Source: a bacterium (GTDB lineage: Bacteria; Zhuqueibacterota; Zhuqueibacteria; Zhuqueibacterales; Zhuqueibacteraceae). From it: a DNA stretch of 64,000 nucleotides. The DNA lies in assembly GCA_044869275.1 (NCBI GenBank), contig JBIOXB010000197.1, forward strand, positions 22,806 through 86,805. Reading direction: 5' to 3'. Position numbers: made by a program. Positions within the stretch are counted from its first letter, which is position 1, and every line of letters starts with the position of its first letter. Of the stretch, positions 39,001 through 42,000 are shown in pieces.

Positions 39001-42000
39001 GAATCCATGCGCGAGGCCCTCGAAGTCATGCGCTCGCACAAGCTACGTTCGGCGCTGGTGATTTTGGGCGTGATGATTGGCGTCGCGAGCTTGATGGGCA
39101 TGGTGGCGACGCTCAGTGGATTGGAAAAATTCTTGGAAGAATCCGTGAGCGGCAACGATACGCCGATCCTCTCTTTGCAAAAGACCGACGTGTTTTCCGG
39201 CGAGGGACATCGCGAGTGGGAGAAGCGCAAGAATTTCACGATCGACGATATGTTCGCGCTGGAAAGGCTGCCGCATGTGCGCGGCGTGATGGTGGTGTAC
39301 GGCGACGGTGCCGTGGCGAAATACAAGGACCGCAAAGCGCGTTTGATTCAAGTCATCGGCACCAACCAGCCTTTTTTGCACGTCAACAGCATCAACATCG
39401 ACGAGGGGCGGTATTTTTCTCAATTCGAAGAAGATCACCGCCGCAAAGTGGTGGTTTTGGGAGACAAGGCCGCGCTCTCGCTCTTTCCTGACGAGGATCC
39501 GGTGGGCAAGCATATTCGTGTCGACGACAAAGACTATGAAGTCGTCGGCGTTTTTGCCCAGCGCAAGACCGTGTTCGGTAGTTTGGCCGACAATTTCATG
39601 GCCGTGCCTTTCACTTCATTCGAGCGCGATTTTCTGCATTACCGGCAGGGGCCGGAATTCCGCGTCATCGTGGAGAGCATGCGCTACCTCGATGAAGCCA
39701 AGGAAAACGTGCGTGCGTTGATGCGTATGCGGCGCAAGGTACCGCTTGGCCAACCCGACGATTTCGCGGTGATCACATCGGAAGCAGTGATGGAGTTCAC
39801 CAAGAAGCTGACGGATGCCGTGGCTTTGGTGCTGGTCGTGCTTTCCTCCATTGCGTTGATGGTGGGCGGCGTTGGAGTGATGGTGATCATGCTGGTGTCC
39901 GTCACCGAGCGCACGCGCGAGATCGGCATTCGCAAAGCCATCGGCGCCACGCGGCGCGTCATCACGTGGCAGTTCTTGATCGAAGCCGCGACGCTGACCG
40001 GCATCGGCGGATTTTTGGGAATCTTGGTGGGAATCGGACTGGCCTTGATTGCTTCGTCGCTGCTGGGATTCCCGTTCGTGCTGCCCGTCGAGTGGGTCAT
40101 TTTTTCCGTGCTGCTTTCTGCCAGCATCGGCCTGTTTTTCGGCATCGTCCCGGCGCGCAAAGCGGCGAAGCTGGACCCCATTGTCGCGCTGCGGTATGAA
40201 TGAGACGTGAGAGGTGAAACGGCAGACGTAATTAGTTGAACTGAATGCGCCTCACTTTTCAGATCCCACGTCTCACGTTTATCGTCTCACATCTGTGGAC
40301 ATACCCCTCCTCCTCAAACCTTCACCGCCTCCGCCTCTTCAATCAAATCCACATCCGGCTTGACTTCGGCGTTCAAAGCCACCTGCCCGCGCTCGCTGCG
40401 CACGATGCGCGAAAACAGCGAAAGCCGCGAATCGAACAAAAAGCGAAACAGCAGTTTCGTCCACGACTGATGCGCCGCAAGCTGATCATAGATTTCCGGC
40501 ACAGTTTTTTTGACTTTGGGGAGATTGTTCCACGGCACCGAGGGGAAATCGTGGTGTTCGTTGTGAAAGCCCACGTTGAACGCGAGCTTGTTCAATCCGC
40601 CGTAATAACTGTAGGTCTCCTGCTCACCGTCATCGGTGAGATAATGGCGTTGAATCCAGCGCGCCCCCAAAGGATGCAGGCCGACGGAAAAAAACAGCGA
40701 CAGCGCAAGATAAGCCAAGGCTTTGGGGCCGAGATAAATCCACACCAGCGCATCAAAGCTGAACTGCACGACCCAATTGAGAAAAATCCACCCGTCGATG
40801 AAAGCGATTTCTTTCAAGCGATGCGGCCGCAAACCTTGAAACACGGGATAAAACAGCAGCCACAGCGCTTTGCCGAGAAAGGAATTGCCCACCAGCTTCG
40901 CTTCCCAACGATGAGGAAGATCGGCGTCCAATTCATAAACGCCTTGAAAAGCGTGGTGCTTCAAATGATAGCGCTGAAACGAAACCGAGCTGGGAATGAC
41001 CTGCGGCAGATTGGCAAACATGCCGGTGAAAATATTTGAGGCCTTGCGTTTGAATACCAAATTGTGCGCGCATTCGTGAATGATCACGAAGAGAGCGTGA
41101 TCCGCAAAGGCGCCGACCAAATAGGCCACACCGAAAATCAGCCACCATGATTGCTCGCGCAACACGTACGCCAGTGCGACTTGAATCAGCACGATGCCGA
41201 GCGTGTACCAAAACGTCATGGGGTTTTTGCCGATCAGCTCGCGCACTTCGGGATGGCGGCGCAAAATCTCCTTGGTGCGGTCGCGATGCGGCTCGGCCAC
41301 GGCAGAATAGGAAAAGTCATTTCTGACAGCGGACATCTCTCTCCTCACGGTTGTGTTGGAATGTCTTATTGATTTGACTGCATAAACACCTTACCCCGTT
41401 CACGAGCCCAATTTGAAACGCTGGCGAGGATTATTCCAAAAATCGAGGCGGGAACTTACCTCAAAGCGGGGAAAAGAAAATGACCGTCCCGTGGGGGCAA
41501 GGTGGGAAACTATACTTCATATAGTAACGAAAACCCTCAAAAGAGTCAAGCCCGCAATTTTCATATTACTGACCGGTCGCTTGAAGCGACCGGTCAGTGT
41601 TACTAGCGTGCACCAATGATGATCTGCCAATCCGGCCTTGTCAACTCGCGCTCATCGCTGGAGAAAATCAATTCGTACCGGCCCTGGCCTTCGATGTCGG
41701 CAAAGATGAATTTCTTGCGGCCTTCGCGGTAGAAATACCAAACTTCATACGGCCGGGCGTCGGTCTCAGCCGGGAATCTTTCCACTTCATTCGGAATGCC
41801 GAATTTGATCACGATGCGGCCGCGGTCGGTCTTCCAGCCTTGCATAAAGCCGGCGCTAAAATTCTTATCGGCATAGGCGATGCGCTGAAAATACTCTTCC
41901 CAAAATTCGTTCACCGGAGTTTCCGGCCGCGGATCCCAGCCATTCCACAATTTTGCCAGATAGCTTTTCTGTGCTGCAGGCTCCAGCTCGGCCAGCATTT

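What a model noticed while it worked through the whole genome (the two positions that open the first line are those of the whole stretch)
40314..41336. Bacterial sphingolipid core genes joined by eukaryote-type tailoring enzymes (delta-4 desaturase, ceramide 2-hydroxylase [...]
Beside the bacterial core Spt-bCerS pair (C4 26106-28489) and a CerR-like reductase, the genome encodes a protein 43% identical over its whole length to plant and human sphingolipid delta(4)-desaturase DES1 (g04013), a FAH1/SCS7-type ceramide 2-hydroxylase (g00691, next to an Mla operon), a Bacteroides-type phosphoinositol-dihydroceramide synthase homologue and a ceramidase-family protein. Boldest reading: this bacterium makes sphingosine-based (4-unsaturated), 2-hydroxylated inositol-phosphoceramides, a make-up regarded as eukaryotic; bacterial sphingolipids characterised so far are dihydroceramide-based.
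Evidence so far: Swiss-Prot table: g00067 Spt 50.6%, g00066 bCerS 35.6% (Caulobacter), g04239 CerR 28.6%; g04013 DES1-like 43.1% q4-313/s15-321 E 2e-88, human DES1 40.7%; g00691 FAH1 37.1% E 3e-33; g01878 PI-DHC synthase 28.2%; g04256 Ceramidase Pfam. Lipid_DES occurs in 13/18 family, 16/166 phylum and 2,449/189,784 bacterial species genomes. Six papers hold 'bacterial sphingolipid'+desaturase+DES1; the five listed are animal/plant lipid reviews by title and abstract.
(Added by a program. Inside this text positions count along the whole contig: contig position 22,806 is position 1 of the stretch shown here. "Call 12" and the like, gene names such as g00115 and contig names such as C1 are that model's own, and its searches are not shown. 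The text may have been shortened before it was handed on; [...] marks where a part breaks off. The agent that wrote the report below was given it as the finding of a first reader that could run no searches.)

Follow-up and report, generated by a model that had tools for sequence, protein, structure and literature searches.

The report
Bacterial DEGS-type ceramide-tailoring enzyme
This bacterium carries an intact relative of the enzyme that puts the double bond (or a hydroxyl group) into animal and fungal ceramides, and in some other bacteria the same gene sits in one operon with the whole sphingolipid pathway, so it is a good but still untested candidate for a step that no bacterial enzyme is known to perform.

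Summary
Window 40314-41336 (-) encodes a 340-aa DES1/DEGS-family protein (Lipid_DES, three His boxes, 39-43% identical to 13 eukaryotic homologues). Spt-bCerS, FA2H-like, PAP2/Aur1-like, MIPS and ceramidase-family genes lie on other contigs; none is near this gene. The gene is not an oddity: it belongs to a large, already annotated bacterial branch with its own motif (GARW versus eukaryotic GHF), and this scan reported such genes before in at least seven other genomes. New here: in 9 of 30 DES-bearing genomes of one Bacteroidota family the gene lies inside a sphingolipid operon of up to 11 genes (DES, FA2H, PI-DHC-synthase-like, Spt, bCerS, reductase, MIPS, PgpA, GtrA). That supports action at C4 of home-made dihydroceramide (about 0.75). 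Double bond versus 4-hydroxyl cannot be read from sequence. Against: most homologues stand alone, and 7 of 11 re-examined carriers lack a clear Spt. No characterised bacterial enzyme was found in print.

The parts
40314..41336 (-). DES1/DEGS-family membrane di-iron enzyme, 340 aa, intact
   Evidence: ORF; Pfam PF08557 + PF00487; 67 of 83 columns invariant in 13 eukaryotic homologues are kept
41220..41324 (-). N-terminal Lipid_DES segment (residues 5-39)
   Evidence: PF08557 48.5 bits, cut-off 23
41064..41078 (-). His box 1, HECAH (87-91)
   Evidence: H87, E88, H91 invariant in 21 aligned homologues
40953..40967 (-). His box 2, HLKHH (124-128)
40644..40676 (-). HPLGARWIQRH segment (221-231): Arg226-Trp227 where eukaryotic homologues have His-Phe/Tyr; marks the bacterial branch
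40551..40565 (-). His box 3, HNEHH (258-262)
41521..41549 (-). sigma-70-like promoter match (TTGACT-17-TACTAT, 9 of 12); weak, suggests a stand-alone transcript
   Evidence: 2 sites found in the region, 1.0 +/- 0.9 expected in shuffles, so not above chance
41568..41598 (.). perfect 14-bp inverted repeat just after the stop of the upstream GWxTD gene; may separate the two genes
   Evidence: read directly from the sequence printed; function not tested

Best explanation
The protein is an O2-dependent membrane di-iron enzyme of the DEGS family that oxidises carbon 4 of the long-chain base of dihydroceramide made by the bacterium's own Spt, bCerS and a reductase. The product is either a 4,5 double bond (sphingosine type, my odds about 3 in 5) or a 4-hydroxyl (phytosphingosine type), or both. 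An FA2H-like enzyme probably 2-hydroxylates the N-acyl chain, and MIPS, a CDP-alcohol phosphotransferase and a PAP2/Aur1-like enzyme probably add phosphoinositol. SHOWN: family membership by sequence, intact His boxes, presence of the partner genes in this genome, operon linkage in other genomes. INFERRED: substrate, regiochemistry, product, electron donor, and that the scattered genes of this genome act on one lipid.
For: Family: (67 of 83 eukaryote-invariant columns kept; two other bacterial desaturases keep 27 and 24). Fold: model pLDDT 70, Foldseek matches include AlkB and SCD1. Operons: L090 FA2H-spt-bCerS-DES-reductase-pgpA; L163/L164 with 11 co-directional genes, gaps of about -74 to 111 bp in L164; 9 of 30 DES-bearing genomes of that family have a pathway gene within 1.5 kb. 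Operon-borne copies fall on three separate branches of the tree, one of them the eukaryote-like branch (G378). This genome: Spt best matches solved SPTs (E 1.7e-128), bCerS-like gene adjacent, MIPS 69% and FA2H 44% identical to operon copies, no SulA-type enzyme, two COX1 genes, so O2 use is plausible. All 16 strong DES carriers among 41 relatives have the bCerS-like gene (two are unpublished genomes). In 301 Bacteroidia-class genomes a strong bCerS match is in 8 of 19 carriers and 13 of 282 non-carriers.
Against: No lipid data. In this genome and in 15 of 15 relatives' loci (+/-1.5 kb) no pathway gene is next to DES; 79 of the 80 closest named loci lack such neighbours within up to 8 kb. bCerS is also in 18 of 25 relatives without DES, so that co-occurrence says little. 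7 of 11 re-examined Bacteroidia carriers have no clear Spt. A His invariant in eukaryotic homologues is Arg226 here, which could change chemistry or substrate. Spt scores 561 bits, under the 640 cut-off; the PAP2_3 protein 134.6 against 480 and it was not found in the 99% complete same-genus genome G001 (unpublished). No cytochrome b5 domain was found, so the electron donor is unknown.
Confidence: 0.75

Rival explanations
1. One reading: this organism makes specifically 4-unsaturated, 2-hydroxylated inositol phosphoceramide (a sub-case of the best explanation).
For: All needed gene types are present in the genome and co-occur in single operons elsewhere.
Against: Needs three separate inferences to hold at once. 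DEGS2 makes phytosphingosine (PMC6920741; PMC11765627), and fungal inositol sphingolipids are phytoceramide-based (abstract start of PMC4830811), so a 4-hydroxylase fits the gene set equally well. The PAP2_3 gene is far below the PI-DHC synthase cut-off; FA2H is found in only 13 of 41 relatives.
Confidence: 0.25
2. The bacterial branch is a general long-chain-base oxidase that acts on capnine-based sulfonolipids in some Bacteroidota and on ceramides in others.
For: 6 of the 7 carriers without a clear Spt have a SulA-type cysteate acyltransferase. RIF-1 and RIF-2 differ by 2 Da (PMC10501047); a 4E double bond in flavocristamide A is recalled, not seen in a call.
Against: SulA background frequency was not measured and may be high in Bacteroidota. 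This genome has no SulA-type enzyme, so this reading cannot apply to the window gene itself; it bears on the family only.
Confidence: 0.35
3. The enzyme has shifted to another lipid (glycerolipid or amino-lipid acyl chain) or oxidises scavenged eukaryotic sphingolipids; its presence beside Spt in this genome is coincidence.
For: Stand-alone gene with unrelated neighbours; His-to-Arg change in a conserved segment; one carrier (G459) shows neither clear Spt nor SulA; a ceramidase-family gene is present.
Against: Repeated placement of members of the same branch inside Spt-bCerS operons in different gene orders; the N-terminal Lipid_DES segment and most family-invariant residues are kept.
Confidence: 0.2
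4. Contamination or a recent transfer from a eukaryote.
For: About 40% identity to eukaryotic proteins.
Against: GC 0.534 and GC3 0.669 match neighbours; contig tetranucleotide correlation 0.996; 14 of 18 family genomes carry it; a tree grouping it with eight named eukaryotes is rejected (p-AU 1.8e-44).
Confidence: 0.01

Closest known systems
Eukaryotic dihydroceramide delta-4 desaturase DES1/DEGS1 and desaturase/C4-hydroxylase DEGS2 (Pfam PF08557 + PF00487)
   Same: Domain make-up, three His boxes, length, 39-43% identity, 67 of 83 invariant columns.
   Different: Separate branch of the tree; GARW in place of GHF; no cytochrome b5 found in the genome; activity untested.
Bacterial Spt-bCerS-CerR ceramide pathway (Caulobacter type; described in PMC11324152 and PMC10191378, passages read)
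   Same: Adjacent spt and bCerS-like genes; a reductase candidate that is the best match to the operon reductase.
   Different: The published pathway ends at dihydroceramide; no long-chain-base desaturase is named in the passages read. Caulobacter's hydroxylase is a DesA-family protein, not FA2H-type.
Bacteroides thetaiotaomicron inositol lipid cluster BT_1522-BT_1526 (PMC9246714, passages read)
   Same: The operons found here hold the same five Pfam types: PAP2/Aur1-like, CDP-alcohol phosphotransferase, GtrA, PgpA, MIPS. This genome has MIPS next to a CDP-alcohol phosphotransferase, and a PAP2_3 gene elsewhere.
   Different: The operons add spt, bCerS, reductase, FA2H and DES. The PAP2_3 proteins score 316.7 (operon) and 134.6 bits (this genome) against a cut-off of 480.
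Myxobacterial FA2H-like 2-hydroxylases and sphingolipids (PMC10002949, passages read; Keck et al. 2011, citation only)
   Same: FA2H-type enzyme in a sphingolipid-making bacterium; a sphingosine-type base in Sorangium is recalled from the abstract of Keck et al.
   Different: I could not read that paper and did not examine any myxobacterial genome.

Membership tests
DES1/DEGS family | N-terminal Lipid_DES segment followed by FA_desaturase domain | tested here: met
DES1/DEGS family | Three His boxes of membrane di-iron desaturases | tested here: met
   HECAH, HLKHH, HNEHH
DES1/DEGS family | Full-length similarity and family-invariant residues | tested here: met
   38.5-42.9% to 13 eukaryotic proteins; 67 of 83 invariant columns; clade of 40 rows against outgroups 100/100
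Eukaryotic DEGS clade (orthologue nested among eukaryotes) | Branches inside the eukaryotic clade and carries the GHF segment | tested here: not met
   GARW segment; bacterial branch 94/93; p-AU 1.8e-44
DES1/DEGS family | Delta-4 desaturation or C4-hydroxylation of dihydroceramide | not testable with these tools
   needs an assay
DEGS2-type C4-hydroxylase | AFG-type segment after His box 1 (recalled, from no call) | tested here: inconclusive
   this protein has NLVFKR there, unlike either vertebrate form as recalled; no vertebrate sequence was fetched
Bacterial Spt (NF047600) | Score over the curated cut-off; best match among oxoamine synthases | tested here: inconclusive
   best family but 561 < 640 bits; best solved match is SPT, E 1.7e-128; adjacent bCerS-like gene
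bCerS / CerR (Caulobacter type) | Direct similarity to the characterised enzymes | not tested
   no characterised sequence in hand; assigned by adjacency to spt and 43-44% / 30-33% identity to operon copies
PI-DHC synthase (NF052609) | Score over the curated cut-off of 480 bits | tested here: not met
   134.6 bits, E 1e-38, full length; only match in the genome
FA2H/SCS7-type hydroxylase | FA_hydroxylase domain with full-length match to FA2H-type proteins | tested here: inconclusive
   PF04116 70.3 bits; 44-49% to operon copies; not compared with a characterised FA2H

The most novel reading that the evidence does not exclude
The GARW branch is the missing bacterial ceramide delta-4 desaturase. 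Together with FA2H and an Aur1-like synthase it lets aerobic bacteria of several phyla build sphingosine-based, 2-hydroxylated inositol phosphoceramide on the convergently evolved bCerS route, encoded in some genomes as one 11-gene operon; the branch lies outside the eukaryotic DEGS clade and may stand near the origin of the eukaryotic enzyme.
Probability: 0.3. Interest if true: 0.75.

Novelty: new variant of a known kind. Interest (0 to 1): 0.5.

Why it matters
Reviews still state that bacteria make dihydroceramide as distinct from eukaryotic ceramide (PMC10191378), yet about 46% of ceramide structures in anoxic Black Sea water carried one unsaturation in the base (PMC11334938) and no bacterial enzyme for this step turned up in the searches made. 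A proven bacterial C4 desaturase or hydroxylase would close that gap, weaken the use of sphingosine-type ceramides as eukaryotic markers, supply a small prokaryotic model for DEGS1 (no relative among solved structures by sequence), and bear on where eukaryotes got the enzyme. The operons and two cultured carriers make the test direct. The window gene itself is an ordinary member of a common branch.

Tried and rejected
Solved-structure search by sequence: no relative. Viral contigs: no confirmed relative with the protein or the alignment. Phage records: none; plasmids: one distant Anabaena desaturase, 24.6%. NCBIfam for the window protein: only weak matches far below cut-offs. RNA runs: 4 runs with shares of 0.04-0.11; laid contigs give short pieces, some 98-99% alike, none spanning the gene; contigs from RNA libraries may hold DNA, so expression is not shown. 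Promoter and terminator scan: not above chance. Second oxoamine synthase on C118 is Kbl-like, not Spt. Three further FA_hydroxylase genes (C139, C201, C186) are of other types and were set aside. The AU test on operon-borne copies (p-AU 1.3e-34) was not counted as evidence: the group was named after a first tree and non-operon relatives sit inside it. Origins of unnamed deep-branching representatives: 30 looked up, 4 gave an organism, so whether eukaryotes nest within bacteria could not be judged. The two top Foldseek rows are unnamed chains of chloroplast motor complexes and were not interpreted. No complex prediction was run.

Full report
1. Observation. The finding's coordinates are window coordinates. 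The minus strand holds an ORF 40314..41348; the ATG at 41336, preceded by AGGAG, gives 340 aa. Pfam finds Lipid_DES at residues 5-39 (48.5 bits, cut-off 23) and FA_desaturase at 63-289 (94.6 bits). The His boxes are HECAH 87-91, HLKHH 124-128 and HNEHH 258-262. Against 13 proteins of named eukaryotes (12 of them annotated by their sources as sphingolipid delta-4 desaturase) identity is 38.5-42.9%, and 67 of the 83 columns invariant in those 13 are kept, against 27 and 24 for two other bacterial desaturases. Plant and human sequences were not fetched. An AlphaFold2 model (pLDDT 70, pTM 0.74) matches AlkB (probability 0.92-0.97) and, weakly, SCD1. GC, GC3 and tetranucleotide use fit the genome.

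2. Surroundings. The gene stands alone: a MacB-type ABC exporter converges on it, and GWxTD, PorV-like and TonB genes lie upstream. No lipid-pathway gene is adjacent here or within 1.5 kb in 15 of 15 relatives' loci.

3. Partner genes in this genome (other contigs). Spt C4:27308-28489 is best matched by NF047600 but under its cut-off (561 < 640) and by solved SPTs (E 1.7e-128); the bCerS-like gene C4:26106-27248 follows it. The FA2H-like gene C34:7746-8441 scores 70.3 bits for PF04116 and lies upstream of ABC-type genes that look Mla-like by inspection only. The PAP2_3 protein C89:3999-5036 is the only match to the PI-DHC synthase model, at 134.6 bits against 480. C208:27578-28558 is the best of 6 matches to the L090 operon reductase (33%). 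A ceramidase-family protein passes its Pfam cut-off. There is no SulA-type enzyme, no cytochrome b5 match and two COX1 genes. I did not compare bCerS or CerR with the Caulobacter proteins.

4. Spread. 14 of 18 family and 17 of 166 phylum genomes carry the gene at E<=1e-30 (G001 and G014 among them are unpublished). 6057 of 8000 scored candidates were homologues, many already labelled 'sphingolipid delta-4 desaturase' by their source. Among 41 relatives all 16 strong carriers have bCerS, but so do 18 of the 25 others; FA2H is in 13 of 41 and the PAP2_3 gene in 28 of 41.

5. The new evidence: operons. Of the 80 best loci, 1 (L090, record title Lewinellaceae) has FA2H-spt-bCerS-DES-reductase-pgpA in a row; 79 have no such neighbour within the DNA held (up to 8 kb a side); 7 Mucilaginibacter loci have another FA_hydroxylase type directly downstream. 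In the family of the L090 genome, 30 of 121 genomes carry DES and 9 of the 30 have bCerS plus reductase (2) or FA2H (7) within 1.5 kb. Wider stretches show, in G097 and G143, 11 co-directional genes: DUF5686 protein, CDP-alcohol phosphotransferase, DES, FA2H, PAP2_3, Spt, bCerS, reductase, MIPS, PgpA, GtrA, with gaps of about -74 to 111 bp in G143. G085 and G103 show the same order as far as their contigs go, G046 and G155 are cut by contig ends, G069 ends at spt, and G053 has the same genes in another order. Six eukaryote-like copies in this family were extended and have no such neighbours; the other 15 loci were seen to 1.5 kb only. In 301 genomes of the class, 19 carry DES; 8 of 19 have a strong bCerS match against 13 of 282 non-carriers (kin are not independent, so no test is offered). 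The other 11 all have a weaker bCerS-like match (background not measured), 4 of 11 a clear Spt (505-674 bits) and 7 of 11 none; 6 of those 7 have a SulA-type enzyme. Two of the 11, G378 and G352, have DES inside a spt-reductase-bCerS cluster, broken in G352.

6. Tree. DEGS-like sequences form one clade against three outgroup desaturases (100/100). The window protein sits in a bacterial branch (94/93) apart from the branch holding eight named eukaryotes (93/86) (43 rows chosen from the 151 plus named animals). Grouping it with those eukaryotes is rejected. The bacterial branch has HPxGARWxQ[R/E]H where eukaryotes have HPxAGH[F/Y]xx[E/D]H: Arg in 80 of 80, 24 of 30, 16 of 18 and 16 of 16 loci of the four sets. 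The 8 His-type bacterial copies include those that branch among eukaryotes (3 placed, 4), probably a separate transfer. Operon-borne copies lie on three branches; this may be repeated recruitment or an old operon with repeated escapes. Deep nodes are weakly supported and many rows are unnamed, so direction of transfer is not shown.

7. Mechanism. From established knowledge of membrane di-iron desaturases, the His boxes hold two irons that activate O2 and abstract hydrogen from a chain held in a membrane tunnel, ending in a double bond or a hydroxyl; DEGS1 and DEGS2 do this on dihydroceramide (PMC11765627 and PMC6920741, passages). The operons place the bacterial branch in ceramide synthesis; this genome has the ceramide core and no sulfonolipid entry enzyme. 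I infer oxidation at C4 of home-made dihydroceramide (0.75). The product is open.

8. What is known. Passages read: bacteria are said to make dihydroceramide as distinct from ceramide (PMC10191378); Caulobacter CC_0202 hydroxylates the amide-linked chain (PMC11324152); myxobacteria have functional FA2H-like enzymes (PMC10002949); BT_1522-1526 make PI-DHC (PMC9246714); roseoceramides are saturated (PMC11789144); sulfonolipid masses (PMC10501047). Section read: about 46% of Black Sea ceramide structures have one unsaturation in the base, position not given, bacterial origin suggested (PMC11334938, section 19). Passages of PMC12872458, PMC9386255, PMC10626005, PMC5234717, PMC3924187 and PMC12134224 added nothing on this enzyme. 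Recalled only: a C9-methyl sphingosine in Sorangium (Keck et al. 2011, citation seen, text not held), phytosphingosine in Bacteriovorax stolpii, the 4E bond of flavocristamide A. Ten searches showed no paper on a characterised bacterial DEGS by title or abstract start; 'DEGS1' + 'bacterial homolog' + 'dihydroceramide desaturase' gave 0. The library lacks most subscription papers, Stankeviciute et al. 2022 was not held, and no supplements were read; any of these may name such a gene.

9. Earlier notes of this scan. Seven follow-ups on other genomes describe bacterial DEGS genes, two with operon or bCerS adjacency, one in a myxobacterium, one proposing sulfonolipids. They agree with my reading but are unchecked and not counted as support. 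None of the lines shown mentions the 11-gene operon. Nothing was noted before on this genome.

10. Verdict. Real gene, real family, common and already annotated in bacteria, function untested. The window gene is ordinary within its branch and its partners are scattered, but the operons found from it make the open question of bacterial long-chain-base oxidation directly testable. Interest 0.5; new variant of a known kind.

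Noticed in passing
L163:776-12955, L164:4227-16053, L162:933-13764, L090:4938-10460: Operons of up to 11 genes joining ceramide core, inositol-lipid cluster, FA2H and DES, headed or flanked by a DUF5686 outer-membrane-type protein (and DUF4833 in some) that could be lipid-transport candidates.
   Followed up: yes
L239:2804-18974 (G378): spt-reductase-bCerS plus a FabG/FabZ/FabF-like set, a eukaryote-branch DES, a CDP-alcohol phosphotransferase, a PLD-like gene, and TPP-enzyme and class V aminotransferase genes that look like phosphonate synthesis by inspection: a possible sphingophosphonolipid cluster. 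G352 (L240) has a similar cluster with a broken DES.
   Followed up: partly
L156-L161, L192, L193: Eight Bacteroidota DES copies carry the eukaryotic GHF segment; those placed in trees branch among eukaryotic sequences, suggesting a second, separate acquisition.
   Followed up: partly
L169:6144-10405 (G008): PAP2_3, a different FA_desaturase (29% to the window protein, no Lipid_DES), a second bCerS-like gene and a saccharopine-dehydrogenase-like gene in a row, in a family member where DES was not found (78% complete).
   Followed up: partly
L041, L045, L046, L064, L074, L075, L078 (about 9030-10035): In 7 Mucilaginibacter loci an FA_hydroxylase of the sterol-desaturase type follows DES directly; a candidate second tailoring enzyme.
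   Followed up: no
G000 C34:5242-8441: The FA2H-like gene runs into ABC permease, ATPase and MlaD-like genes on the same strand (by inspection); the same Mla-like genes lie beside DES in some family members.
   Followed up: no
P0130, P0141 and neighbours in the tree: A well supported set of unnamed proteins with eukaryote-looking N-termini carries the bacterial GARW segment; if they are protist proteins, both branches occur in eukaryotes.
   Followed up: partly
window 41603-53515 (-): Run of GWxTD, two lipoprotein-like ORFs, PorV-like, an unannotated 651-aa protein, a TonB-dependent receptor and a FadL-like gene; unrelated to the finding.
   Followed up: no
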